From NCBI GenBank assembly GCA_038128225.1, contig JAYPJF010000001.1:94458-158457 (forward strand): a stretch of DNA of 64,000 bases, read 5' to 3'. Positions 7,241 to 55,013 of the stretch are shown here, piece by piece. Under the pieces are notes generated by a model. It was not told the origin of the DNA and did no database searches. It saw only the letters and a list, made by a program, of their open reading frames with translations. The DNA is from a bacterium (GTDB lineage Bacteria; Patescibacteriota; Minisyncoccia; Phycocordibacterales; UBA2100). Every line of letters begins with the position of its first letter. The stretch's first letter is position 1. A program made the position numbers and the translations under genes.

Positions 7241-9163
7241 TGCGATCGGCTGATGTTCGATATCCTGTTTCTTCTTCGGTTGAATTCCATTTTGAATCAG
7301 AATCGCTTCGAAATCACCCCGCTCGATAGTTTCTTTTTCAATTAGCGCTTTCGCTATCGCTTCCAAAACTGCGCGATATTTTGTTATTGCTTCTTCCGCT
7401 TTTTTGTATGCTCCGTCGACAATCCGTCGCACCTCAGCATCAATTTTCGACGCCACTTCTTCCGAGTACTCTTTCCCGTCAATACCTACACCCCCAAATA
7501 ACGGTCGCCCTCCATTTGACTCAAGCGCGATAGGCCCCATTTCCTCGGACATACCAAATCGCACCACCATGTCACGCGCAAGCCCAGTGAGCACTTGCAA
7601 ATCATTCGAAGCGCCTGTCGTAAGATCACCAAATACAAGTTTTTCTGCAATGTACCCTCCGAGCGATACGGCGATGTCATCGAGGAACTCTTTCCTCGAT
7701 TGCATTTTCCGATCTTCGAGCGGGAGTTTGAGCGTGTACCCTGCTGCGCGCCCGCGGGAAATGATCGAGACTTTATGCACCGGATCCGCGTACGGCAAAA
7801 GCGAAGCCACAAGCGCGTGCCCCGCTTCATGGTACGCCGTGATTTCTTTTTCTTTTTTATTCAAAACGTGACTACGTCGTTCAGGGCCGAGCATTACTTT
7901 CTCGATCGAGCGCAACAGATCGTACTGAGTGATTTCTCTCCGGTCCTCCCGCGCCGCAAGAATTGCTGCTTCGTTCATGAGATTTGCAAGATCCGCACCA
8001 GAAAACCCAGGCGTGCGCTCCGCGATTACCGTAAGATTTACATCGGAATGAAGTGGTTTCTTACGCGCGTGAATTCCTAAAATTGCTTCGCGATCCTCGC
8101 GATCAGGTAAGTCAATCACCACGCGGCGGTCGAATCGCCCCGGGCGCAGAAGCGCCGGGTCGAGTACATCCGGGCGGTTCGTTGCCGCCATCACAATCAC
8201 TTTTTCGCTTGGTTCAAACCCATCAAGCTCAACGAGAATCTGGTTGAGTGTTTGCTCACGCTCATCGTTTCCGCCACCCACGCCCGTGCCACGCACACGT
8301 CCAACTGCATCAATTTCGTCAATAAACACAATCGCCGGCGCACCTTTTTTAGCAATCTTGAAAAGATCTCGTACGCGCGATGCTCCTACTCCCACAAACA
8401 TTTCCACAAACTCCGATCCTGAAATCGAAAAGAACGGCACTCCTGCTTCGCCTGCTACCGCGCGCGCTAAAAGTGTTTTTCCAGTACCTGGACCACCCAT
8501 AAGCATCACACCTTTTGGAATGCGCGCTCCGATTGCCAGAAATTTCTTTGGGTTTTTAAGAAAGTCCACGATTTCCGTGAGTTCTTCCTTTGCTTCTTTT
8601 GCACCTGCAACATCTTTAAAAGTCACCTGCGACTTATCATCGGGGGTTACCATACGCGCGCGCGACTGACCAAAAGAAAATGCTTGCATCCCCGCACCAC
8701 GCACTTGCCGTGTTAAGTACCAAATGAGACCAAACAATAAAAGGATCGGCAAAAAGATCGGAGCGAGCGTCAAGAACCAAAAACGAAACCCTGTCTCATC
8801 TTTCACTTCAATTTTCACTTGCCCAAGCGCTTCAATGGTCACGCCATAGTTAACCAATGTTTCGGTAAGAGAAACTTCTGCTTCTTTGCGCGACTGTTTC
8901 TTTGATTCATCGACATACGCGATTTCGATCTGATCTCCTCGCACCGTGAGTGAGGCAACCGTACCTGTGCCTATGTCAGCCGCAACTTGCGACAGAGGGA
9001 TTTCCTCCGCCTTACTGAAATAGTCACGAACAAACCCGTATACAGACAAAAGTACTAGGAAAATGGCTACTGTAGAAATAACTTGTATCCAAAAGTTTGG
9101 TTCTTGCTGTTGGCTTTGTTGTTGATTTTTCTTCTTATGTGAGGGCTTCTCAAGATGAGGCAT
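7238..9163 (-). CDS. ftsH: ATP-dependent zinc metalloprotease FtsH
   Basis: N-terminal transmembrane region, AAA module [23 protein letters not shown], zinc site HEAGHAL. 641 aa. Confidence 0.92.
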
Positions 9164-9169
9164 GGCGGC

Positions 9170-9197
9170 AATTATACGCAGATCTTGACTCTTTGCA
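9170..9197 (-). promoter_or_regulatory. Sigma70-like promoter placing the ftsH transcription start at or near its ATG (leaderless)
   Basis: Minus strand: TTGCAA, 16 nt, TATAAT, tgccgcc, ATG. There is no Shine-Dalgarno sequence. Confidence 0.5.
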
Positions 9198-9216
9198 AAA
9201 AAAGACGCGGATTCGA
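9188..9216 (-). terminator. Intrinsic terminator after the patatin-like gene
   Basis: GACGCGGATT-cg-AATCCGCGTC hairpin followed by TTTTTTT on the minus strand. Confidence 0.65.
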
Positions 9217-9223
9217 ATCCGCG

Positions 9224-10177
9224 TCAAATTTCCCGTACCGGGCGCGCTTCTGCAAGTAGCTGCTGCATGAATCGTCGCGCCTCATTCCATCCTTCTCTCA
9301 TTATCGGAAGCGTGTTCCCTTCAAAAGTGAGCCGCGCATCTCCTATCGTGGGAGTGATGCGACACACACGAATGCGTTTCGCTTCAGCTGCACGATCCGC
9401 TTCATGCGCAAATCGCACATCCATCAGTGCCGTGTTCCTACGTAACAGTCGCGTCTCGCGCAAGAGCCACCCACGCGCAATCATGCTCCAGATTTTCTTG
9501 TACACCCATGAACTGTACTTCGGATGTATTTGACTCGAAAGCGCAAGCACGTCAGTTGGCCGGAACTTTTTCATCCCCTCGATAATCGGAAACGGTGTCG
9601 CGCACGCACCATCAACCATTTCCTTGCCATTGAGTTTGTACTGTGCGTCGGAGATATTTGGCCCGGCCATCGTTGCGCATGCAAGCGACACGACACCTGG
9701 TGGTTCGCGCGCATCTGCAAAATGGAGCGCGCCCGTTGACCGTTCGGTGAGGGCAATCCATAGTGCCGTACGATGTGCGGCAATGAGATCTTGCCCAAGC
9801 CACAATGGTGCAATCGCCCCATTAAGCACTGACTCAAGGTACGAGAGACGGATGCGTATCCGCGGAAGTCTCCCGCTCACAAACTTCGCTTTTGGCTCAG
9901 CAAGATGCTCAAACACCAAGTGCACCCGATGCGCTATCTTGCACAAATACGCCCCAAATGGGCCCGCACTCCCCGAAACCGCAAGCATCCAATCGAATGG
10001 TTCGGTGAGACCTTCGTCTTGTAGCGCGGTTAGATATCCTGCAATGCGCACCGACTTCATGCCGCCTGATGACCCTACACATAAGATGCGGTGCGGCGGC
10101 TTCTGCTTAAGCTCGATGGCTCGCTGATTTTCATAGAGGTGCCGAAGCACCAGGACATTTCCCTTGAGCTTCATCAT
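9224..10177 (-). CDS. Patatin-like phospholipase family protein
   Basis: Glycine-rich oxyanion motif CVGSSGGMKSVRIAGYL, GxSxG nucleophile elbow (VSGSAG), and a downstream DGA motif. Confidence 0.55.
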   Translation of the reverse strand: MMKLKGNVLVLRHLYENQRAIELKQKPPHRILCVGSSGGMKSVRIAGYLTALQDEGLTEPFDWMLAVSGSAGPFGAYLCKIAHRVHLVFEHLAEPKAKFVSGRLPRIRIRLSYLESVLNGAIAPLWLGQDLIAAHRTALWIALTERSTGALHFADAREPPGVVSLACATMAGPNISDAQYKLNGKEMVDGACATPFPIIEGMKKFRPTDVLALSSQIHPKYSSWVYKKIWSMIARGWLLRETRLLRRNTALMDVRFAHEADRAAEAKRIRVCRITPTIGDARLTFEGNTLPIMREGWNEARRFMQQLLAEARPVREI

Positions 10178-10823: not shown

Positions 10824-11211
10824 GGGGATGATTGGCTTCGACAAAGAGATACGGATCATACATATGCATGGCATAGCTGTGGTATCTATTCAAACTGCCA
10901 CAAACCAATAAGTGCAAACAAAACTGCACGTGGAATCTTGAGCCCAATTCAGGCAAAAGATCTCCAGTTCGCTTACGCATTAGCCTAAGCGACCGCTCGC
11001 CTATCGACATCCGATACATAGTTGCGAACGTCATACTTTCGGGTTCGACAACGCTTCAGTCTGGAAGCGACGTCTAAAGAAACATGACTCGAGTTTGTGC
11101 GATCTTGTGCATTCACAACGCGCAACCTCTAAACCTCTCTGAATGTACTACGCCTTGTAGATAGATGTGTGTTCCCTCTTTTGGACGGGGGTTCAATTCC
11201 CCCCATCTCCA
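10824..11211 (+). ncRNA. ssrA: tmRNA (ssrA), one-piece
   Basis: 5' end GGGGAUGAUUGGCUUCGAC. 3' tRNA-like end GGACGGGGGUUCAAUUCCCCCCAUCUCCA. Acceptor stem 7 bp with G3:U70. Internal tag frame ends ...AKDLQFAYALA then TAA (10986-10988). A terminator hairpin lies at 11228..11256. Located directly after smpB. Confidence 0.8.
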
Positions 11212-11227
11212 CATCAATAGACACGCT

Positions 11228-11256
11228 GGCCCAAAGTACTTCTTTGGGCCTTTCGT
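11228..11256 (+). terminator. Intrinsic terminator after ssrA
   Basis: GGCCCAAAG-tactt-CTTTGGGCC followed by TTTCGTG. Confidence 0.55.
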
Positions 11257-11324
11257 GCACAAACTGTTTGAGCGGATCCTAACACCTTATGAAGCGAATA
11301 AATCTGCGGGCAATTAGAACCTGG

Positions 11325-11756
11325 TTAACTAATAAATTTGTCCCCTTTTCGCCTTCCGACAATATAGGGAACCCCGATCGAAACGAGAGTCCAGACAGAT
11401 AGTAAACCTATTGTTGTATAGACTTCAGTATCGCTTGACTGTAGCATCAAATTAAAACCTTCCCACATAAATATTACATACACACTACTTGCGACATAAA
11501 AGAAGTACTCCTCGATAGGCAAGCCAAGAAACCTTACCCCTATTGTCTGAGAGTTGTTGAACTGCCATAACCACGTCCGGTCTTTCTTTCCGTGACGAGT
11601 AGCCCAAACGTCCCAAATACTTCCAATCAGCGTCACAAGTACTATGAACGGGGTGAGTGCCTGAAAAGAGATGCGGTCAGAAAGCAAAAACCCTGCACCT
11701 AGTGTCGGAATACAAAACACAAACAATAAACTCAGGAGATAGTGGTACTTTCTCAC
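11325..11756 (-). CDS. Small polytopic membrane protein, possibly lycopene-cyclase-domain-like
   Basis: 143 aa with 4-5 predicted transmembrane helices and a PIEEYFFY motif. The region is AT-rich compared with its neighbours. Confidence 0.35.
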   Translation of the reverse strand: MRKYHYLLSLLFVFCIPTLGAGFLLSDRISFQALTPFIVLVTLIGSIWDVWATRHGKKDRTWLWQFNNSQTIGVRFLGLPIEEYFFYVASSVYVIFMWEGFNLMLQSSDTEVYTTIGLLSVWTLVSIGVPYIVGRRKGDKFIS

Positions 11757-11800
11757 GAAAAAATTATAACAGGTTCTAACTTCTGGTTAGACTCACTAAA

Positions 11801-11832
11801 ACAAAAGCCCCTTGCGGGGCTTTTGTTTTTCC
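11801..11832 (-). terminator. Intrinsic terminator after the 11844..13202 gene
   Basis: AAAAGCCCC-ttgc-GGGGCTTTT followed by GTTTTT. Confidence 0.65.
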
Positions 11833-11843
11833 ACTTCTGGTAA

Positions 11844-13202
11844 CTATTCGACGATAACGGTAATGCTCTTGCTTGCCATTGGCTGCCCACCGGGCACGGT
11901 GCTGCCTGTTTTCACCTTTGCGGTGAAATGAATCTGATACGTTCCCGCAGTGACGAATGTGTACGTAATACTCGAGCCTACTTTTGAGGTAAGGATGCCT
12001 GTGCTCACCGTTGCCCCGCTTGTTTGCGAACCCCAGATTTCAATTGATTGTTCAAGAGTCCCTGTGCCACTCGCTGAGAACGACCACGTCCCGGATTGCC
12101 CTGCAGAAAGTTTCGTCGGACCAGATATATCGCCAATGGTCGGCTTGCTGACACAACTGCCCGTGTACACAACATTCGCGCGGGCCGCTTTTGCAGCACA
12201 TGTATTTGTATATGTTTTTGGTTCCTGCTGCATACAGAGCATTGTTGCAACGCCTGTACCCCCAGCGTTCGCACATCCAGGAGGAATCGCGCACACAGGT
12301 GCATAGTCTTGTGTACACACACCTGTTTGTGACGGTACTTGCTGCCCTCCATTTCCGCCATCGATACTCCCTGGTGACGCAGCGCCCGATGTATCAGAAG
12401 TTGAAGTTGCTGTAGGGCACATAAACGCACATGAAGGTGGTGTACGCCCGACCCAGCTGCCGTCTGAGCACTTCTTTACATCCTGCGTACACACGTCCTT
12501 GCCTGTGTTTGAGAATGTTCCCGTACAATACCCCTGCATATATACCGCACACGCTTTTGCGGTGCACACTGCTGCTCCACCAGATGTTTCGCGTGAGCAC
12601 GTATTACAACCATCGAACCACGCTTTACAAGTTGCACCCGGTACAAATGGGCGTGTGTCGTTAAACGAACTTGGGCTTATCGAATTTATACGGACAGTCG
12701 CTGTGGCATCTGTAGCTACGGTGCATCGTGTTGCTATTTTCGCGCGCGTTTGTTTCCCAACAACTCCATACCCGTTTGTACTTGGAGATCCGGAGCAGAT
12801 GCCGAGTTCTCGACATTGAAACTTTTTGACTGCAGTTTCCGTAGCTGGTCCAAATGTCCCAACAATAGTGGTGTTAAAATCTCCCGTACCCACTAAAAAA
12901 CGTTGTAGTTCAGAAACAGACGTGTCGGCTGTTGAATCTTGCCCACCACGTTTTATATCTCGAGCAATTTGCGGACACACGGTGTCTGTATGCGCTGCTG
13001 CTGTGTTTGATGTCATACGCGTGTCAACTGAAACACCTCCCGCCGCATTGATCTGCGCCTGTAGAGAATTGACGAGCGCCATAAGCGACGCGATGCTGTC
13101 CAACAAGTCAGTCTGAGTTTGTGCTCGTGCCGAAGAAACTGCAAAAAACATGCTCGCAATCATTACGCCGATCACGAGAAACTTTGATGTATAAACGCGC
13201 AT
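11844..13202 (-). CDS. Secreted protein: signal peptide, coiled coil, PG-binding-like domain, Cys-rich modules including a Kazal-like domain, and a C-terminal beta (PKD-like) domain
   Basis: The start is refined to MRVYTSKFLVIGVMIASMFFAVSSARA (signal peptide). Coiled coil LQAQINAAGG. PGBD-like motif VSELQRFLVGTGDFNTTIVGTFGPATETAVKKFQ. Kazal-like CTQDYAPVC...KTYTNTCAAKAARANVVYTGSC. The module CKAWFDGCNTCSR is shared with the 61168 gene. Confidence 0.7.
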   Translation of the reverse strand: MRVYTSKFLVIGVMIASMFFAVSSARAQTQTDLLDSIASLMALVNSLQAQINAAGGVSVDTRMTSNTAAAHTDTVCPQIARDIKRGGQDSTADTSVSELQRFLVGTGDFNTTIVGTFGPATETAVKKFQCRELGICSGSPSTNGYGVVGKQTRAKIATRCTVATDATATVRINSISPSSFNDTRPFVPGATCKAWFDGCNTCSRETSGGAAVCTAKACAVYMQGYCTGTFSNTGKDVCTQDVKKCSDGSWVGRTPPSCAFMCPTATSTSDTSGAASPGSIDGGNGGQQVPSQTGVCTQDYAPVCAIPPGCANAGGTGVATMLCMQQEPKTYTNTCAAKAARANVVYTGSCVSKPTIGDISGPTKLSAGQSGTWSFSASGTGTLEQSIEIWGSQTSGATVSTGILTSKVGSSITYTFVTAGTYQIHFTAKVKTGSTVPGGQPMASKSITVIVE

Positions 13203-49914: not shown

Positions 49915-50757
49915 TCATCGAACAAATACGCTTCTTCCATCAGATGTAAACGTGACCGTTCCATCGACACAAGTATCTTTTATCTCAACTTCGAAACGCT
50001 TAAACACATCGAGTACTTCTTGATGGGGATGTCCGTATCGATTGTCACACCCCCGAGAAACAACCGCGTAGCGCGGAGCAACAAACCCCACGAACAGAGG
50101 CGCCGTGGATGTATGTGAGCCATGATGCCCAGCCTTGAGAACATCACTCTGGAGCGTTTCGCCATCAAGAGCGGCAAGATATTCTTCGACCGAACGCGGC
50201 GCGTCTCCTGTAAATAAAAAAGATACTTCCCCATACACAAGGCGCGCAACTACTGAAGCCGTGTTGGTTTCAAGATCACTCACGTCCCGATCGGGGAAAA
50301 GAATTTCGAGATGCGCTTCTCCGAGATCAATCACCTGCCCGCGTCGCGCAAGCATATAATGCGCGCCTTCAGTCGCGACACTTGCAAGCATCGATTCTGT
50401 TTGCGGCGTTTCGTGTTGTACCCCGGGCTCTAGGATATATGAAACATCATACCGTTTTAATACATCAACGAGCCCACTTACATGGTCCGCGTCTGGATGC
50501 GTTGCGATTACCACATCAATAGTTCGATCGTACCAAGGCATCACCACAGCAAGTTCGCGCAGCACCGAACGATCAGGGCCGCCGTCAATGAGTACCTGCG
50601 CCCCAGTGGGAGATTGAATAAATATGGCGTCCCCTTGTCCTACATCAAGAAACGAAACAATAAGCTCGTTCTGAGAATGCGAGAATTGCGGCGCCCAAAT
50701 ACCAGCCACGCACAAACACAAAAGCGCCGCCGCACCAATCGCAATCTTCGCGCGCAT
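49915..50757 (-). CDS. Stand-alone MBL-fold domain protein of the ComEC C-terminal type
   Basis: N-terminal signal/transmembrane segment. SFLDVGQGDAIFIQSPTGAQVLIDGGPD and VIATHPDADHVSGL. Confidence 0.6.
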   Translation of the reverse strand: MRAKIAIGAAALLCLCVAGIWAPQFSHSQNELIVSFLDVGQGDAIFIQSPTGAQVLIDGGPDRSVLRELAVVMPWYDRTIDVVIATHPDADHVSGLVDVLKRYDVSYILEPGVQHETPQTESMLASVATEGAHYMLARRGQVIDLGEAHLEILFPDRDVSDLETNTASVVARLVYGEVSFLFTGDAPRSVEEYLAALDGETLQSDVLKAGHHGSHTSTAPLFVGFVAPRYAVVSRGCDNRYGHPHQEVLDVFKRFEVEIKDTCVDGTVTFTSDGRSVFVR

Positions 50758-50788
50758 ACCGTAGTATATCGCGTGATATACTCGTTCC

Positions 50789-51403
50789 ATGCACCAGTAC
50801 GAAGCTAAAACGTTTTCAATTCCTGAGCTTACCGGCATTTCCCAAAAACAAATCGACGTGCACCTTGGGCTGTATCAGGGGTATGTGAAAAACATTAACC
50901 TCTTGCGTGAGCAAATCGCCGACCTTACAAAACAAGATGCTGAAAAATACACATTCGCTATTGAAAGCATTCGCCGACGCATGGGGTTTGAGTTTAACGG
51001 CATGCGCATGCACGAATTTTACTTTCCCCAACTCGAAGGGGGGCCGCGCGCATTCGATCTTGATTCCCCACTCGCAACTGCACTCTCAGAAAAGTACGGC
51101 GATTGGAACGCGTGCATCAGTCATCTCAAAAAAGTGGCTCTGAGTCGTGGGAGCGGTTGGTGTTCACTCGTGTGGGACGCTGCCGCACAAACACCTCATG
51201 TGTATTGGACCACCGATCACGAACTCGGTTCGCTTGTTGACGTGAATATCCTTTTTGCGCTCGACATGTGGGAACATGCATACATGGTTGACTATCTCCC
51301 CGCAGAAAAAGCTACACACGTTGATGCGTACCTCGCGAATGTGAACTGGGAAATTGTTGCGCGCCGATTCCCAAAAGAAACATACACGCGTACACAACAA
51401 TAA
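50789..51403 (+). CDS. sodA: Superoxide dismutase, Fe/Mn family
   Basis: DMWEHAYM motif and C-terminal NVNWEIVARRF. Confidence 0.85.
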   Translation: MHQYEAKTFSIPELTGISQKQIDVHLGLYQGYVKNINLLREQIADLTKQDAEKYTFAIESIRRRMGFEFNGMRMHEFYFPQLEGGPRAFDLDSPLATALSEKYGDWNACISHLKKVALSRGSGWCSLVWDAAAQTPHVYWTTDHELGSLVDVNILFALDMWEHAYMVDYLPAEKATHVDAYLANVNWEIVARRFPKETYTRTQQ

Positions 51404-52805
51404 CCCACCAAAATGGAAAAGCAGGGACAGTGATCGCCGCATACGGAAGATGCGCAAAAAACTCCACTACTGAAAGTACGTACGCCAGTACTGTGTACGC
51501 CGGGAACCCCGCGACGACTGCCACAATGCCGCTAAAGAAAATCCCAACGATGCCGCCCAGTATTGAGGCAATCATCGCCACAGGAATCACAGGAAGCACA
51601 AGAATATTTGTAGCCAGCGACACTAAAGATAGCGTTCCCATCTGATACAAAATAAGTGGCAATACAAACAATTGAACCCCCACCGTTGCCGCCACAACCT
51701 CGCGCAGTCCGATTCTCCTTGTGACAAATTGAATTCTACGCTCAACAAGAGGCGCGACGTGAATAAGACCGAATGTCGCCAACACTGAAAGCTGAAAACT
51801 CGGATCATGCAGCACAATCCGCGGGTTGACGAACGCCATCATCGCCGCAACGAAAATAAGTGCCCGAGTAATTGCGTATTTTCTCTCAACCATCGTGGCA
51901 AAAAGCGCTATCACGGCCATCGCTCCCGCGCGCACTCCAGTTGCCGAACCACCGGTCATTGCCACAAAAGCAGCGACAATGATTGCTCCCGTCACAAAGC
52001 GCATACGGATGCCAAAACCAGAAATGAGCGCCAGTACCGCCACCGTAATGAGCGTGATGTTGTACCCCGAAAGCACAACGATATGGGTGAGCCCTGTTAT
52101 TTGAAACTGATCCGAAAGAGTATTCCCCAACGCGCGCTTGTCTCCCACGGTTATTCCTCCCGCAAGCGCCGCATACGGCTCAGAGAGGGCACGCGCGAGA
52201 CCATCGAGATACTTTTGCTTGCCAGCATAAAGCCACCCGCGGATGCCACCCCGCGCATTAGTGTCCACGACTAGTACCTCGGCAAACGAGAGTACGTACC
52301 CGACACCATCTTTGGCAAGATACCCCGGGTAATCAAAAAGTCTTCCGTTCTCGCCCCCGAAAGATTCAGGATACAAGAAAGTGCCCCGCACGCTGATATG
52401 GTCCCCATATGACACTTCGTACAAGCGAGACATGACGACCAGTGCACGCCCAGAGACCTCAACACCTTCTACGACATCAAAACACAGTGTCAGTCTCTCA
52501 CCACTTTCTCTTGTGTCCGGTTCTTGGCATACCGTACCGGAAAGCGTTGCTACTTTTCCAATGTACGGAGAAAGTATCTCGCTGTGTACGGGAGAAACAA
52601 GAGCTGCGCGCCCCACGCCACACGAAAGGAAAACCAGCGCGGTAAAGAAAAGCACGCCCGTTGACTTTTCAGCCGAAAAAAACGCGGCTATGAAAACAAT
52701 GCATGCAAGTAATGCGAGCCACAACGCCGCCACAAGCCCAAACCCATACTCAGCTAAGATGATGCCTATAAAAAAGAAACAACACGATATCCAAAAAAGA
52801 GGCAT
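51312..52805 (-). CDS. ComEC/Rec2-like competence membrane channel domain protein (no MBL domain)
   Basis: Polytopic membrane protein. GLTHIVVLSGYNITLI resembles the ComEC GLSHLLAISGLH block. Its 3' end overlaps the sod 3' end by 92 nt. Confidence 0.55.
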   Translation of the reverse strand: MPLFWISCCFFFIGIILAEYGFGLVAALWLALLACIVFIAAFFSAEKSTGVLFFTALVFLSCGVGRAALVSPVHSEILSPYIGKVATLSGTVCQEPDTRESGERLTLCFDVVEGVEVSGRALVVMSRLYEVSYGDHISVRGTFLYPESFGGENGRLFDYPGYLAKDGVGYVLSFAEVLVVDTNARGGIRGWLYAGKQKYLDGLARALSEPYAALAGGITVGDKRALGNTLSDQFQITGLTHIVVLSGYNITLITVAVLALISGFGIRMRFVTGAIIVAAFVAMTGGSATGVRAGAMAVIALFATMVERKYAITRALIFVAAMMAFVNPRIVLHDPSFQLSVLATFGLIHVAPLVERRIQFVTRRIGLREVVAATVGVQLFVLPLILYQMGTLSLVSLATNILVLPVIPVAMIASILGGIVGIFFSGIVAVVAGFPAYTVLAYVLSVVEFFAHLPYAAITVPAFPFWWVIVVYACMFLLGIGAQQFPSSHSRGTHQRV

Positions 52806-52827
52806 GCTCTAAGCCTATCAAATAAGT

Positions 52828-52852
52828 ACCGGCGGGTGTGACACCCGCCGGT
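52828..52852 (-). terminator. GC-rich hairpin downstream of the small GC-rich ORF
   Basis: ACCGGCGGGTG-tga-CACCCGCCGGT followed by ACTTATTTGATAGG on the minus strand. Confidence 0.4.
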
Positions 52853-52875
52853 TGCGCTTGTGGTCGTGAGCCGAG

Positions 52876-53019
52876 CTAGCCGTCGACGTACTCGATCCGC
52901 CGCGGATCGTCGCCGGGGAGCCGGTCGCTCTCGCCGCGACTGAGACCCGTGTCCGGCGCGCCGAGACCGCGTTCCTTCACGTCGGCGATGGCCGCTTGTG
53001 CGTCGCTCATCCTGGTCAT
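52876..53019 (-). CDS. Small GC-rich ORF (47 aa) with a perfect Shine-Dalgarno sequence; predicted acidic and disordered
   Basis: GAAGGAGGG, 6 nt, then ATG. Peptide MTRMSDAQAAIADVKERGLGAPDTGLSRGESDRLPGDDPRRIEYVDG. Local GC is about 68 % against about 50 % elsewhere. Terminator-like hairpins on both sides. Below the 60 aa threshold of the ORF track. Confidence 0.4.
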   Translation of the reverse strand: MTRMSDAQAAIADVKERGLGAPDTGLSRGESDRLPGDDPRRIEYVDG

Positions 53020-53087
53020 AGTGACCCTCCTTCTATGCTCGCTCCACGATCAAAAACCAGCCGCGAGCGTACTGGTATCTCAGTAAT

Positions 53088-53122
53088 GTAGAAAAATCGG
53101 CCGACCTGTCAAGGTCGGCCGG
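53088..53122 (-). terminator. Intrinsic terminator after the E1-like gene
   Basis: CGGCCGACC-tgtcaa-GGTCGGCCG followed by ATTTTTCTACATT on the minus strand. Confidence 0.6.
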
Positions 53123-53128
53123 CTTCGA

Positions 53129-53809
53129 TTACTGGTCCCACACTTCAAAAACTTCACGCTCAGGCGGTGTGTAGGACCATGCCCGACAGTTTACATACGG
53201 TTCCTGCGAGCCACGTTCAAACATCAGCCACAGCGTCATACGCCACATCATTTCCACTACCACGCGGTCTGAGTTTTCCGGAAGCGGAAACTCGGTCTTG
53301 CACCCCTGAAGCAAGTCTACGGGGTCTGGATGGCGGTGATGATACTGCGGGTTCTCATATTTCTCACAGTGCCAGATGTTGTTGGGATCGAGCCCGTAGG
53401 CTTTCCCCCCGTCAAGTCCAACACGCCCGTCACCAAAGAAAGTCACACCCGGATTCTCGCGCACGCAGGGCCAAACATCTTCGTACCGTGCATAGTTAGA
53501 ATCAACCGCCGAAAAAACGATCCCCCGCAGAGAAGTGCCTCGAGTAAGGCGTCCACGATGCGGTATCACGCGCACATCGGGTCGGATCGCCCGAGCAATG
53601 TCAACAAGCGCGGTAACTTTCAGTTTCCCAACGTATTCTGAAAAATACGCCTGGTTGAACAAGTTTCTTCCCTCAAGAAAATCGTCGTCCCACACATGAA
53701 TCTCTGGCACGCCTTTGCGCACCAGGTTTTGACAGAGCTTACTCCCTAGTGACCCGGCTCCAATTATGTGCACCGGGCGACCGTTTAGCATGTCTGGTGT
53801 GAAAATCAC
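53129..53809 (-). CDS. ThiF/MoeB/E1-like adenylyltransferase superfamily protein (small, no C-terminal CxxC)
   Basis: Rossmann HIIGAGSLGSKLCQNLVRKGV and VWDDDFLEGRNLFNQAYF, the E1 DxDxxExSNLNRQ-type block. 226 aa. Confidence 0.6.
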   Translation of the reverse strand: MIFTPDMLNGRPVHIIGAGSLGSKLCQNLVRKGVPEIHVWDDDFLEGRNLFNQAYFSEYVGKLKVTALVDIARAIRPDVRVIPHRGRLTRGTSLRGIVFSAVDSNYARYEDVWPCVRENPGVTFFGDGRVGLDGGKAYGLDPNNIWHCEKYENPQYHHRHPDPVDLLQGCKTEFPLPENSDRVVVEMMWRMTLWLMFERGSQEPYVNCRAWSYTPPEREVFEVWDQ

Positions 53810-53850
53810 AGGACGTACTCCTTCATTTGCCCGCCACTACCATACGCGTA

Positions 53851-53886
53851 AATACAAAAAAAGGAAGAGCGCTTGCGCGCTCTTCA
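53851..53886 (-). terminator. Intrinsic terminator after the 53884 gene, overlapping its stop codon
   Basis: GAAGAGCGC-ttgc-GCGCTCTTC followed by CTTTTTTTGTATT on the minus strand. Confidence 0.65.
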
Positions 53887-54669
53887 CCAAAATTTCGGCC
53901 ACTTCTTTTGAGGAAATGTCTCTCGGTACCACTGTGGGACTTCGCTTCTCTTTACCGTCGGCCACAGCATCATCCGTTGCGGGTCTTGCCCCGCACATTC
54001 AGCGTAACGGACGACTATACTTGCAAGTCGTTCGTATTCATACGTGCGAAACGCGCTCTGAATAGGGTCTCGAGCAGTACCAAGACAACTAGCGTGTCCA
54101 TTCGAGTGTATGCCTGTAGGCGCATGCATTGTGTCCTTTGTGCCAGTTAAATTGTTCCAGCGCACCTCGTCGCGATCAAGCTTAAGCCATATGAGGAACT
54201 GTCCGATTCTGTGCCAGGTCATACATGGCCTCGACCATGGGAAGAGGCCTGTCCTGTAAAACTGTCCGTACAAACATTCCGTTTCAATGCAAATAGCATT
54301 TTCCTCAACAAACACTCTTTTCACTCGTGGGACAGCACACATTTTTCGATACTGCGCGCGCAACTCTTCATAGCTCGGGAGCTTCCAAGCAGGCGCCCGT
54401 TTGACTGTCTCGATCTTTCCCTCAAGTTGGCGAACTACATTTTGGAGGGCCCCTATGCTCTTTATATCCTGACTGTCTATGCGAGGCGTGCGCTCAATCG
54501 CATGCCGCGTTTTGACTAGTTTTTTTTCATGACCGCGCAACTCTGCCTCGAGTATCTCCCTAGCTTGCTTTCGCCTGCGATACAGAAAGGTGACAAAGTC
54601 ATTTTCTTCCTTCCTAATCATTTCACAGCCTCCTTTTCCTATGCTCTGTAAGAGGGTATACGCGCGCAC
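53884..54669 (-). CDS. Hypothetical protein: N-terminal coiled coil plus a C-terminal alpha/beta domain with an H-x-N...C motif (possible E2/UBC-like fold)
   Basis: The secondary-structure pattern (three beta-strands, a loop IHSNGHASCLG, then a helix) resembles the UBC fold. This is speculative. Confidence 0.4.
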   Translation of the reverse strand: MRAYTLLQSIGKGGCEMIRKEENDFVTFLYRRRKQAREILEAELRGHEKKLVKTRHAIERTPRIDSQDIKSIGALQNVVRQLEGKIETVKRAPAWKLPSYEELRAQYRKMCAVPRVKRVFVEENAICIETECLYGQFYRTGLFPWSRPCMTWHRIGQFLIWLKLDRDEVRWNNLTGTKDTMHAPTGIHSNGHASCLGTARDPIQSAFRTYEYERLASIVVRYAECAGQDPQRMMLWPTVKRSEVPQWYRETFPQKKWPKFW

Positions 54670-54692: not shown

Positions 54693-55013
54693 TTACGCTT
54701 TTTTCGCATCAACTTTGTCGAGCCCAAGACCTTTGACAATAAAATACACTACCGCTGCGATAATGATGAAATCAATAGTAACAGCCACAAAATCCCCCAA
54801 AAGAACCGGTCCGAGCTTCATCGCCTTAAGACCTTCAGTTGAACCAAGCACATACCCCAAAAGCGGATTGACAATATCATTGACCAACCCAGAGACGACT
54901 TTTGAAACGGCCCCTCCAAGGATAAAACCGACCGCAAGACCAACCACTCCCTGCTCGCGGATAAACTGAAGAAAACCGGCAAGCCCTCCTTTTACTGCTC
55001 CTGTAGGATTCAT
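54693..55013 (-). CDS. mscL: Large-conductance mechanosensitive channel MscL
   Basis: FIREQGVVGLAVGFILGGA transmembrane helix 1 signature; 106 aa. Confidence 0.8.
   Translation of the reverse strand: MNPTGAVKGGLAGFLQFIREQGVVGLAVGFILGGAVSKVVSGLVNDIVNPLLGYVLGSTEGLKAMKLGPVLLGDFVAVTIDFIIIAAVVYFIVKGLGLDKVDAKKA

What the first reader, a model, noticed from the sequence alone, without database searches (positions are those of the whole stretch)
52825..54669. E1-like (ThiF), possible E2-like and a tiny Gly-terminated ORF as three terminator-bounded units next to mscL
Seen in sequence: a 226-aa ThiF/E1-family protein with the Rossmann and DxD-NL(F)NQ blocks but no MoeB/ThiF CxxC. It lies immediately downstream of a 261-aa protein whose C-terminal domain has a beta-beta-beta / IHSNGHASC-LG / helix layout reminiscent of the UBC (E2) HPN...C active-site loop. 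It is followed by a 47-codon ORF with a perfect Shine-Dalgarno sequence ending ...EYVDG. Each gene carries its own intrinsic terminator. Established: bacterial E1/E2(/JAB) conjugation modules (Bil, Cap2/Cap3-type, and the Iyer-Burroughs-Aravind E1-E2 operons) act in phage defence and protein tagging. Inference: this may be a minimal, JAB-less E1/E2-like conjugation or peptide-adenylation module in a CPR-like genome. The small ORF could be a target or substrate, although it is not a beta-grasp ubiquitin-like protein.
Basis: partly seen in the sequence, partly recalled or inferred. Interest (0 to 1): 0.75.

Follow-up and report, generated by a model that had tools for sequence, protein, structure and literature searches.

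The report
E1/E2-like peptide-tagging module in Paceibacterota
Three adjacent genes in a CPR (Paceibacterota-like) genome look like a stripped-down ubiquitin-type tagging system: an activating enzyme, a previously unclassified conjugating-enzyme-like protein, and a 47-residue, probably unstructured peptide ending in glycine in place of ubiquitin.

Summary
On the minus strand, between mscL and comEC, lie three genes:
- a 245-aa protein (the 261-aa ORF trimmed to its Shine-Dalgarno-preceded ATG);
- a 226-aa ThiF/E1-family enzyme;
- a 47-codon ORF ending ...EYVDG.

Each is followed by a GC-rich hairpin and a T-run.

In every related locus with enough sequence, this gene is followed by the same small E1. 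A short ORF ending ...Y-x-(D/G/A)-(G/A) follows that E1 in all 11 distinct short-form loci where the DNA after it was available. Two of these loci sit in unrelated genomic contexts, and there the peptide ends ...QYTGG.

Longer relatives of the E2-like protein sit in operons with a beta-grasp Ubl ending G-N, the same type of E1 and, in two of the three operons examined, a recognisable JAB peptidase.

My best reading is a JAB-less E1/E2 cascade that activates a non-beta-grasp peptide at its C-terminal glycine and attaches it to unknown targets. No biochemistry exists. I class it as a new variant of a known kind.

The parts
53884..54621 (-). E2-like protein 'X' (245 aa plus stop; the mechanical ORF extends to a GTG at 54669)
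   Evidence: ORF. An SD box precedes the ATG at 54621 and the public gene call is 245 aa. There is no Pfam, NCBIfam, PADLOC or PHROG hit. The exhaustive search found 124 homologous clusters. The AF2 model has pLDDT 94.5.
54400..54618 (-). N-terminal antiparallel helical hairpin of X (residues 2-74)
53917..54372 (-). UBC/E2-like domain of X (residues 84-235): one helix, six strands, a long loop, then four helices
54085..54087 (-). Codon of Cys179 of X (Cys195 in the 261-aa numbering), the candidate catalytic cysteine
   Evidence: Invariant in 50 of 50 homologues and at least 90% conserved in 36 long relatives. It lies at the end of the loop just before helix 181-192. hhalign aligns it to UBE2D2 Cys85, although that match is not significant.
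53864..53885 (-). Terminator-like hairpin plus T-run directly after X
   Evidence: 9 pairs, then CTTTTTTTGT. An equivalent hairpin and T-run follow X in all 11 distinct loci.
53129..53809 (-). E1-like ThiF-family adenylating enzyme (226 aa from the GTG; an alternative ATG at 53791 gives 220 aa)
   Evidence: Pfam ThiF 7.6e-14, above cut-off. PADLOC Cap2-type 'E1-E2' models score 1e-14 over residues 6-89. PDB profile hits are Uba1, Cap2, ThiF, MccB and PaaA. The conserved nucleotide-binding-type residues are invariant in the alignment.
53300..53302 (-). Codon of Cys170 of the E1 (GCKTEFP), the candidate E1 thioester cysteine
   Evidence: Invariant in all 12 aligned E1s, including the distant L011 partner, and also present in the L024 and L025 E1s. 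That it lies in the crossover-loop region is inferred from the ThiF-family layout, not tested.
53098..53121 (-). Terminator-like hairpin after the E1, with a TTGACA box in its loop
   Evidence: One search reports the hairpin and a promoter-like site TTGACA-16-TACATT at 53112-53085. A TTGACA-like box just after the E1 stop recurs in most related loci.
53025..53032 (-). Shine-Dalgarno box (AAGGAGGG) of the small ORF
   Evidence: Sequence. Purine-rich boxes precede the ATG in all 11 loci.
52876..53019 (-). 47-codon gene for a low-complexity peptide ending ...DPRRIEYVDG; proposed modifier activated at its C-terminal Gly
   Evidence: ORF. Positional orthologues were found in all 11 distinct short-form loci, with Arg, Tyr and a terminal Gly or Ala conserved. 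The codon-position pattern indicates purifying selection.
52828..52852 (-). Terminator-like hairpin after the small ORF
   Evidence: 11 pairs, 9 GC. Equivalent hairpins follow the small ORF in the other 7 loci where I folded that region.

Best explanation
The three genes form a self-contained, JAB-less ubiquitin-type conjugation module whose modifier is a short, probably disordered peptide rather than a beta-grasp protein.

Proposed steps:
1. The ThiF-type E1 binds the conserved C-terminal tail of the 47-aa peptide (...R-x-x-x-Y-V-D-G) and adenylates its terminal glycine with ATP.
2. The acyl group may pass to the invariant E1 Cys170.
3. It is then transferred to the invariant Cys179 of the E2-like protein as a thioester.
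4. The E2-like protein may select targets through its N-terminal helical hairpin. It discharges the peptide onto an amine of an unknown target, either a protein lysine or another nucleophile.

Because the peptide is translated with glycine already at its C-terminus, no JAB-type processing peptidase is needed.

What is shown and what is inferred:
- Shown: the identity of the E1 family; the UBC-like fold prediction and invariant Cys of the second protein; the reality and conservation of the peptide gene; and the strict three-gene linkage across unrelated genomic contexts.
- Inferred: that the peptide is the E1 substrate, that thioesters form, and that there is a downstream target.
For: **E1**
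- Pfam ThiF is above cut-off.
- The best defence-library matches are Cap2-type E1-E2 models.
- PDB relatives are Uba1, Cap2 and ThiF.
- The GxGxxG, D-x-D, N-x-x-N-Q, K, D and R positions and one Cys are invariant.

**E2-like protein**
- AF2 models have pLDDT 93-94.
- Cys179 is invariant.
- Many homologues carry (G)PPNI-x3-G-x3-C, resembling the E2 motif HPNI-x3-G-x2-C.
- The hhalign register places the Cys on UBE2D2 Cys85.

**Linkage**
- X is followed by this E1 in all loci with enough sequence, whether the locus was retrieved through the E1 or through X.

**Peptide**
- 11 distinct orthologues end in G (10) or A (1), with conserved R and Y.
- Selection acts at the codon level.
- In two unrelated contexts it ends ...QYTGG, like ubiquitin's di-glycine.

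**Independent support from the long relatives**
- Long relatives of X sit in operons with a beta-grasp Ubl ending G-N and the same type of small E1. Two of the three operons examined also carry a recognisable JAB peptidase.
- The two operons with a recognisable JAB have a Ubl that needs trimming after Gly. The short-form modules have no JAB and a peptide that ends at Gly.

**Precedent**
- Cap2 (E2-E1) activates the C-terminal Gly or Ala of cGAS, which is not a beta-grasp protein (PMC10097602).
Against: - There is no biochemical evidence of any kind.
- The domain has six strands, not the four of canonical E2s.
- The HPN asparagine is missing in this copy (HAPTG).
- The E1 matches family models only over its N-terminal Rossmann half. 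I did not model its C-terminal half.
- Hairpin terminators between the genes argue against simple co-transcription.
- No target, E3 or deconjugating enzyme is apparent.
- I did not model how the E1 might recognise so short a peptide.
Confidence: 0.55

Rival explanations
1. The E1 acts alone, as in the E2-independent SAMP/UbaA, TtuB/TtuC or Urm1/Uba4 systems. X is then a non-catalytic UBC/RWD/UEV-like adaptor or regulator that binds the peptide or the E1, and its conserved cysteines serve a structural or redox role.
For: - The HPN Asn is not conserved in this copy.
- A second cysteine (C209, in RYxEC) is nearly invariant in short forms, so a disulfide or metal site is conceivable.
- Iyer et al. 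2006 describe inactive E2-like domains in bacterial operons.
Against: - Cys179 is invariant in 50 of 50 short forms and at least 90% conserved in long forms, whereas C209 is replaced (consensus QFxES) in long forms.
- Cys179 occupies the topological position of the E2 catalytic Cys.
- According to Iyer et al. 2006, inactive E2-like domains (RWD-like) lack this Cys.
Confidence: 0.13
2. The module makes a peptide natural product (RiPP-like). The ThiF-type enzyme adenylates or otherwise modifies the C-terminus of the precursor peptide, as MccB does for microcin C or PaaA for pantocin. X is an accessory or scaffold protein.
For: - MccB and PaaA are among the PDB relatives of the E1 (6e-8 and 7.5e-7).
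- The substrate is a small ribosomal peptide with a variable N-terminal part and a conserved C-terminal core.
Against: - The E1 begins directly with the Rossmann fold and has no N-terminal peptide-clamp or RRE-type domain.
- The peptide ends in Gly or Ala, not the Asn that MccB chemistry requires (established knowledge of microcin C).
- No exporter, immunity or tailoring genes are consistently linked. The neighbours are housekeeping genes, and they differ between contexts.
- Homologous long-form operons use beta-grasp Ubls and, in two of three, a JAB peptidase.
Confidence: 0.12
3. The peptide is a sulfur carrier. The E1 adenylates the C-terminal Gly, which is converted to a thiocarboxylate for cofactor or tRNA thiolation, as with ThiS, MoaD or TtuB.
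For: The best NCBIfam similarities of the E1 are to ThiF and MoeB models, all far below cut-off. An invariant E1 Cys could form an acyl-persulfide or acyl-disulfide.
Against: - No ThiS/MoaD-type beta-grasp, rhodanese, ThiG/ThiH, MoaE or tRNA thiolase gene is adjacent in any of about 15 loci.
- The E1 lacks the CxxC zinc motif and a rhodanese domain.
- This model gives no role to a strictly linked UBC-like protein with an invariant Cys.
Confidence: 0.05
4. Same chemistry but a different role. The module is a mobile anti-phage defence system like CBASS Cap2/Cap3, Bil or Bub, not a housekeeping tagging system.
For: - The closest library matches of the E1 are Cap2-type defence models.
- One long-form operon lies near an AbiEii gene.
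- The module occurs in at least three different genomic contexts.
Against: - In Paceibacterota it sits in a stable syntenic block (RecJ, DUF975, RNase H, (MscL), X, E1, peptide, ComEC, SOD) across E1 divergence down to 47% identity. That suggests vertical inheritance.
- No effector, CD-NTase, regulator (CapW, CapH/P) or deconjugating enzyme is linked.
- No copy was found in the viral contig collection.
Confidence: 0.15

Closest known systems
CBASS type II Cap2 (E2-E1 fusion) acting on the C-terminus of cGAS/CD-NTase
   Same: - The E1 Rossmann half is most similar to Cap2-type models (PDB Cap2 1e-10).
- The activated substrate is not a beta-grasp protein and ends in Gly or, more rarely, Ala (PMC10097602). 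The same G/A alternation is seen here.
   Different: - E2 and E1 are separate genes here and were never found fused: none of 36 long relatives has a ThiF hit.
- There is no CD-NTase, effector or Cap3/JAB.
- The substrate is a free 32-55 aa peptide rather than the tail of an enzyme.
- X has a helical hairpin and a six-stranded sheet.
Bacterial Ubl-JAB-E1-E2 operons (Iyer-Burroughs-Aravind class 6d, now Bil)
   Same: Long relatives of X occur with a beta-grasp Ubl and an E1, plus a JAB peptidase in two of three operons. That is the same gene complement (PMC1779556; PMC11601596).
   Different: - The window module has no Ubl and no JAB.
- The E1 is a single 226-aa ThiF-type domain, not the IAD-AAD-CYS BilD architecture.
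- X is not recognised by any Pfam Prok-E2 or UQ_con model.
Bub (6E/DUF6527) pathways
   Same: A diverged bacterial E1/E2/Ubl system, in which Ubls with one to three beta-grasp domains are known. One long-form operon here has a tandem double Ubl.
   Different: Bub works through serine oxyesters and carries a DUF6527 protease. Here both the E1 and the E2-like protein keep invariant cysteines, and no DUF6527 is present.
Pup / UBact tagging
   Same: A small, low-complexity, probably disordered modifier with a conserved C-terminal motif, in bacteria (own knowledge).
   Different: Pup is attached through a C-terminal Glu side chain by glutamine-synthetase-fold ligases (PafA/Dop), not by E1/E2 enzymes. 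No such ligase is adjacent here, and the terminal residue is Gly.
MccB/MccA (microcin C) and PaaA/PaaP
   Same: A ThiF-family enzyme acts on a short ribosomal peptide that is not a beta-grasp protein. These enzymes are PDB relatives of the E1.
   Different: Those enzymes carry an N-terminal peptide-binding domain, and the MccA substrate ends in Asn. They have no E2-like partner. Their gene clusters carry export and immunity genes (own knowledge).

Membership tests
ThiF/MoeB/E1 adenylating enzyme superfamily (PF00899) | Profile match above the curated threshold | tested here: met
   Pfam ThiF 51.9 bits against a cut-off of 28.1, E 7.6e-14, covering residues 13-92 only.
ThiF/MoeB/E1 adenylating enzyme superfamily (PF00899) | Nucleotide-binding GxGxxG plus the acidic and Asn/Gln/Lys/Asp/Arg residues of the adenylation site | tested here: met
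   G11, G13, G16, D35, D37, N43, N46, Q47, K58, D97 and R102 are invariant in 12 sequences. Assigning them to the active site is by family knowledge.
ThiF/MoeB/E1 adenylating enzyme superfamily (PF00899) | CxxC...CxxC zinc site of ThiF/MoeB proper | tested here: not met
   There is no CxxC in the 226-aa sequence. All NCBIfam ThiF/MoeB equivalog scores are far below cut-off. The protein is therefore an E1-superfamily member but not ThiF or MoeB itself.
ThiF/MoeB/E1 adenylating enzyme superfamily (PF00899) | Catalytic cysteine in the crossover loop (thioester-forming E1s) | tested here: inconclusive
   Cys170 (GCKTEFP) is invariant, including in distant partners.
UBC/E2 fold (UBC-like superfold including UEV and RWD) | Three-dimensional similarity to solved E2 structures | tested here: met
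UBC/E2 fold (UBC-like superfold including UEV and RWD) | Conserved catalytic Cys at the end of the loop after the beta-meander, before helix 2 | tested here: met
   Cys179 is invariant in 50 of 50 and at least 90% conserved in the long forms. It lies directly before helix 181-192 and aligns to UBE2D2 Cys85 in the only local hhalign match.
UBC/E2 fold (UBC-like superfold including UEV and RWD) | HPN motif (His-Pro-Asn) about 8 residues before the Cys | tested here: not met
   The window copy has H-A-P-T-G. Many homologues have (H/Q)GPPNI, and the long forms have APHV. The Asn is not a family-wide feature.
UBC/E2 fold (UBC-like superfold including UEV and RWD) | Sequence membership in a curated E2 family (UQ_con, Prok-E2_A to E) | tested here: not met
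   No such Pfam hit at E <= 0.1 in 50 short and 36 long members. The PDB profile search found nothing. hhalign against four human E2s gave Prob 2%.
Bil (class 6d) system | Beta-grasp Ubl, JAB peptidase and a multidomain IAD-AAD-CYS E1 in the operon | tested here: not met
   The window has no beta-grasp or JAB gene nearby and its E1 is a single 226-aa domain. Only the long-form relatives carry a Ubl, with a JAB in two of three.
CBASS type II (Cap2/Cap3) | E2-E1 fusion with a CD-NTase, an effector and a Cap3 JAB | tested here: not met
   The E2-like and E1 genes are separate. The neighbours are MscL, ComEC, SPFH, RNase H and SOD.
Bub (6E/DUF6527) | Serine (oxyester) catalytic residues and a DUF6527 protease | tested here: not met
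   Invariant cysteines are present in both enzymes. There is no DUF6527 hit in any operon protein scanned.
Microcin C-type (MccB/MccA) | N-terminal peptide-clamp domain on the E1-like enzyme, and a precursor ending in Asn | tested here: not met
   The E1 starts at the Rossmann fold (residue 13 aligns to Pfam position 23). The peptides end in Gly or Ala.
Pup/UBact | C-terminal GGQ or GGE and a PafA/Dop ligase | tested here: not met
   The peptides end ...YVDG or ...YTGG. No PafA/Dop-like gene is in the neighbourhoods listed. The rest of the genome was not searched.

The most novel reading that the evidence does not exclude
Paceibacterota (CPR) bacteria run a housekeeping, ubiquitin-fold-independent tagging system. 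A free, intrinsically disordered 30-55 residue peptide, in effect only a 'ubiquitin tail', is activated at its C-terminal glycine by a minimal E1. It is passed to a new family of cysteine E2-like enzymes and attached covalently to cellular targets. The system would have arisen from a Ubl-JAB-E1-E2 operon by replacement of the beta-grasp modifier, and tandem E2-like paralogues would provide target specificity.
Probability: 0.4. Interest if true: 0.85.

Novelty: new variant of a known kind. Interest (0 to 1): 0.72.

Why it matters
All known E1/E2 cascades use a beta-grasp modifier, with one exception: CBASS, where the tail of an enzyme is used. Bacteria's known disordered tag, Pup, uses unrelated ligases.

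A free, gene-encoded, non-beta-grasp peptide handled by an E1 and an E2-like enzyme would show that the ubiquitin fold is dispensable for this chemistry. It would also add a new, uncatalogued E2-like family of 124 clusters at 50% identity. It would give CPR bacteria, whose protein regulation is almost unknown, a candidate post-translational tagging system.

The module is small, only three genes of about 1.8 kb, and directly testable in vitro.

Tried and rejected
- **k-mer homology search with X** found only itself. The exhaustive HMMER search was needed.
- **Foldseek on the PDB with the trimmed model** gave no significant hit.
- **A PDB sequence-profile search with the X domain** gave only chance-level basigin hits.
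I use it only for the alignment register.
I replaced it with a hand-made degenerate DNA pattern, which is strict and returned only 3 genome loci and 4 metagenome loci.
- **The profile k-mer search with A1** returned only 6 proteins.
- **The viral contig collection** gave nothing.
- **Pfam, NCBIfam, PADLOC and PHROGs** gave no family for X or for the peptide.
- **Literature searches** found no description of this module.
- **A JAB or a GG-ended beta-grasp elsewhere in the window:** a crude motif scan found only an HxH-motif ORF, which I take to be HIT-like because the syntenic loci carry a HIT gene, and a GG-ended ORF that I judged spurious without checking.
Full report
**1. What is in the window**

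On the minus strand the order is mscL (54693-55013), a 261-codon ORF (53884-54669), a 226-codon ORF (53129-53809), a 47-codon ORF (52876-53019) and comEC (51312-52805).

- **First ORF.** It most likely starts at the ATG at 54621, giving 245 aa. AAAGGAGG lies 7 nt upstream, the public gene call has that length, and homologues align from there.
- **Second ORF.** It is a ThiF/E1-superfamily protein. Pfam gives 51.9 bits against a cut-off of 28.1, but only over residues 13-92. Its best matches in the defence library are Cap2-type 'E1-E2' models, again only over the Rossmann half. All NCBIfam ThiF/MoeB equivalogs are far below cut-off. It has no CxxC.
- **Third ORF.** It has an AAGGAGGG box 5 nt before its ATG and encodes MTRMSDAQAAIADVKERGLGAPDTGLSRGESDRLPGDDPRRIEYVDG.
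- **Terminators.** Each gene is followed by a GC-rich hairpin and a T-run (53885-53864, 53121-53098, 52852-52828). The region holds 9 such sites against 3.5 +/- 2.0 in shuffles.

**2. The first protein ('X') is an uncatalogued family with a UBC-like domain**

X matches nothing in Pfam, NCBIfam, PADLOC or PHROGs. A word-based search found only itself. An exhaustive HMMER search of 1.84 billion representatives found 124 clusters at E <= 1e-3, of which 65 are at <= 1e-10. Most are 230-290 aa, and about 36 are longer (340-777 aa) with the homologous region towards the C-terminus.

In an alignment of 50 short members, P98, T114, L117, W136, C179, G181, R205, E208, P229, W231 and Y232 are invariant. 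Only the C179-x-G motif is also kept in the long members. The second cysteine (RYxEC209) becomes QFxES there.

AlphaFold2 with this alignment gave a confident model (pLDDT 94.5, pTM 0.87). It has a long antiparallel helical hairpin (residues 2-74), then a helix, six strands, a 23-residue loop ending in Cys179, and four helices.

- Foldseek on the PDB found nothing significant. Its nominal first and third hits are an E2 and Atg10.
- Profile-profile comparison with human E2 sequences was not significant (Prob 2%). Its only local alignment places the strands WHRIGQFLIWLKL / VRWNNL and the HAPTGIHSNGHASC segment on E2 beta3 / beta4 / HPNINSNGS-IC. That puts Cys179 on catalytic Cys85.
- Many homologues read (H/Q)GPPNI-x3-G-x3-C, close to the E2 signature. 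The window copy has HAPTG, so the HPN asparagine is not a family constant.

I conclude that X carries a remote, elaborated UBC-like domain with a catalytic-type cysteine. This rests on one structural method and on conservation. It does not rest on significant sequence similarity.

**3. Gene linkage**

The E1 has 11 close homologous clusters at 46-78% identity.

Starting from the E1, every locus with sequence upstream has an X gene. In locus L008 there are three tandem X paralogues.

Starting from X, I used protein look-ups and a degenerate DNA pattern for VR[YF]xECxG...WP...VPxWY. Every locus with enough downstream sequence has the E1. Locus L017 shows two tandem X copies before the stored sequence ends.

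The only genomes with the pattern in the 185,579-species genome set are two Candidatus Paceibacterota MAGs and one unclassified bacterial MAG. In that lineage the module lies in a stable block: RecJ, DUF975, RNase H, (MscL), X, E1, small ORF, ComEC, SOD.

Two further modules lie in quite different surroundings. L022 sits among TPM phosphatase, YkuD and peptidase C39 genes. L023 sits among haem oxygenase, SnoaL and glyoxalase genes. The three genes therefore travel as a unit.

**4. The small ORF is a conserved gene**

An ORF of 32-55 codons follows the E1 in all 11 distinct short-form loci that extend far enough. Several of these had not been called as genes. Their C-termini are:

| Locus | C-terminus |
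|---|---|
| window | ...DPRRIEYVDG |
| L001 | ...DPRTRKYVDG |
| L005 | ...DPRMRAYLDG |
| L007 | ...NPRTREYVDA |
| L008 | ...DPRTRLYVDG |
| L009 | ...DPRVRKYVDG |
| L014 | ...DPRTKQYIDG |
| L016 | ...DPRTRKYVDG |
| L021 | ...DPRRVAQYYAG |
| L022 | ...GGRTKQYTGG |
| L023 | ...PGRTRQYTGG |

- The Arg at -8, the Tyr at -4 and the terminal Gly (Ala once) are conserved.
- The N-terminal parts are Ala/Gly/Pro/Thr/Ser-rich and variable, which suggests disorder.
- Between close pairs, substitutions fall mainly on third codon positions. For L009 against L016 the counts by codon position are 8/7/26, with 19 synonymous and 12 non-synonymous codon changes.
- The stop codon varies (TAG, TGA, TAA) while the frame is kept.
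- All copies have a purine-rich ribosome-binding box.

**5. Independent support from the long relatives**

Three operons containing long X-domain proteins were examined.

- **L011:** 757 aa, X-long (645 aa), 496 aa, a 226-aa ThiF, a 149-aa tandem double beta-grasp protein with each repeat ending ...LLLKALRGN (ThiS family 1.4e-5), then 309 aa and 230 aa.
- **L024:** X-long (444 aa), an 80-aa Ubl ending ...VKKIKGN, and a 251-aa protein with a FWGHSHH...S..D JAMM signature (PADLOC JAB 3e-4; Pfam Prok-JAB 2e-3, below cut-off). A 227-aa ThiF follows, and an AbiEii gene is nearby.
- **L025:** X-long (777 aa), a 305-aa JAB-like protein, a 239-aa ThiF and an 83-aa Ubl ending ...MKPLKGN. The context is housekeeping (RecR, L21, RuvX, SecY).

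Their E1s are the nearest relatives of the window E1 outside its own subfamily (8e-32 against its HMM). They keep the same invariant cysteine.

The X domain is therefore the E2-position component of a Ubl-E1-E2 operon type. Two of the three examples also carry a recognisable JAB, giving the gene content of class 6d of Iyer et al. 2006. The E1 here is a small single domain, and the E2-like protein is not covered by the Prok-E2 Pfam families.

One pattern fits the proposed function. In the two operons with a recognisable JAB peptidase, the modifier carries a residue after the glycine. In the short modules without a JAB, the peptide is translated with glycine (or alanine) last.

**6. Mechanism proposed**

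1. The E1 adenylates the peptide's C-terminal Gly.
2. The acyl group passes, possibly via E1 Cys170, to X Cys179.
3. It then passes to an amine on a target.

The closest experimentally established analogue is CBASS Cap2. Cap2 forms thioesters with the C-terminal Gly or Ala of cGAS, a protein without a beta-grasp fold, and conjugates it to lysines (PMC10097602).

The differences from known systems are listed in the membership table. In short, the module is not Bil (no Ubl, no JAB, no multidomain E1). It is not Cap2/Cap3 (no fusion, CD-NTase or effector). It is not Bub (cysteines rather than serines, and no DUF6527; PMC11601596). It is not MccB-type (no peptide clamp, no terminal Asn) and not Pup (different ligase chemistry).

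Everything after 'the E1 is an adenylating enzyme' is inference.

**7. Regulation**

The hairpin and T-run after X recur in all 11 distinct loci, and the one after the peptide gene in the 8 loci where I folded that region. The one after the E1 recurs in about half. A TTGACA-like box lies in or next to that hairpin in most loci, followed by a moderately conserved GCACGCTCGCG-like stretch in the leader.

This suggests the peptide gene has its own promoter and is expressed independently of the enzymes. That would suit a stoichiometric modifier. It is untested, and sigma-70 consensus scans are weak evidence in CPR bacteria.

**8. Rivals**

- **X as a non-catalytic UBC/RWD-like adaptor, with an E2-independent E1 (0.13).** The invariance and position of Cys179 argue against it.
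- **A RiPP or peptidyl-adenylate product (0.12).** The missing peptide-clamp domain, the terminal Gly, the lack of export or immunity genes and the Ubl-containing relatives argue against it.
- **A sulfur carrier (0.05).** No sulfur-transfer partners are linked, and this model gives X no role.
- **Housekeeping or anti-phage role.** This is a separate open question. The stable synteny in Paceibacterota and absence from viral contigs favour housekeeping for the short form. The long forms may well be defence-island systems.

**9. Novelty and verdict**

I found no description of this module or of the X family in the searchable literature or in four profile libraries.

The kind of system, a bacterial E1/E2 ubiquitin-like conjugation cascade, is known. 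New here are a free, non-beta-grasp, gene-encoded peptide in the modifier position, a new E2-like family with a helical hairpin, and a vertically inherited copy in CPR genomes.

I rate it a new variant of a known kind. Interest is 0.72. Confidence in the proposed mechanism is 0.55.

Noticed in passing
L008:353-2878 (three genes); L017:2217-3946: Locus L008 carries three tandem paralogues of the E2-like gene (257, 260 and 262 aa) ahead of a single E1 and a single peptide gene. L017 has at least two copies. This could mean several target specificities served by one E1 and one modifier.
   Followed up: partly
window 53085-53121 and the equivalent regions of L001, L007, L009, L014, L016, L021, L022, L023: A TTGACA-like box sits in or beside the hairpin after the E1 stop codon in most loci. 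A moderately conserved GCACGCTCGCG-like stretch follows in the leader of the small ORF. This may be a dedicated promoter or regulatory leader for the peptide gene that overlaps a terminator.
   Followed up: partly
L024:7419-7661, L025:6188-6439, L011:10346-10795: The beta-grasp Ubls of the long-form operons end ...KGN or ...RGN(C), with one or two residues after the glycine. L011 encodes two nearly identical Ubl repeats in one 149-aa protein. L024 and L025 also encode JAB-like peptidases (L024:8053-8808, L025:4510-5427).
   Followed up: partly
L011:3699-5972, 7951-9441, 10839-12554: The long-form operon in L011 also has 757-, 496-, 309- and 230-aa proteins with no Pfam, NCBIfam or PADLOC match. 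Their roles (E3-like, effector or JAB-like) are unknown.
   Followed up: partly
window 49915-52805: ComEC appears split. The DUF4131 and Competence domains are in one gene (51312-52805). In the syntenic loci the downstream ~285-aa gene is annotated as metallo-beta-lactamase, and the window's counterpart (49915-50838) was not scanned here. An Fe/Mn superoxide dismutase gene lies on the opposite strand between them (50789-51403). The same arrangement is seen in the related loci.
   Followed up: no
window 1-64000: GC skew is negative in 30 of 32 two-kb bins, and nearly all long ORFs in the region examined are on the minus strand. This fits a single replichore with strong gene-strand bias.
   Followed up: no
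X residue 209 (window 53995-53997) in the RYAEC motif: A second cysteine is nearly invariant in the short-form E2-like proteins but is replaced by Ser in the long forms. Its role (structural, redox or a second catalytic site) is unexplained.
   Followed up: no
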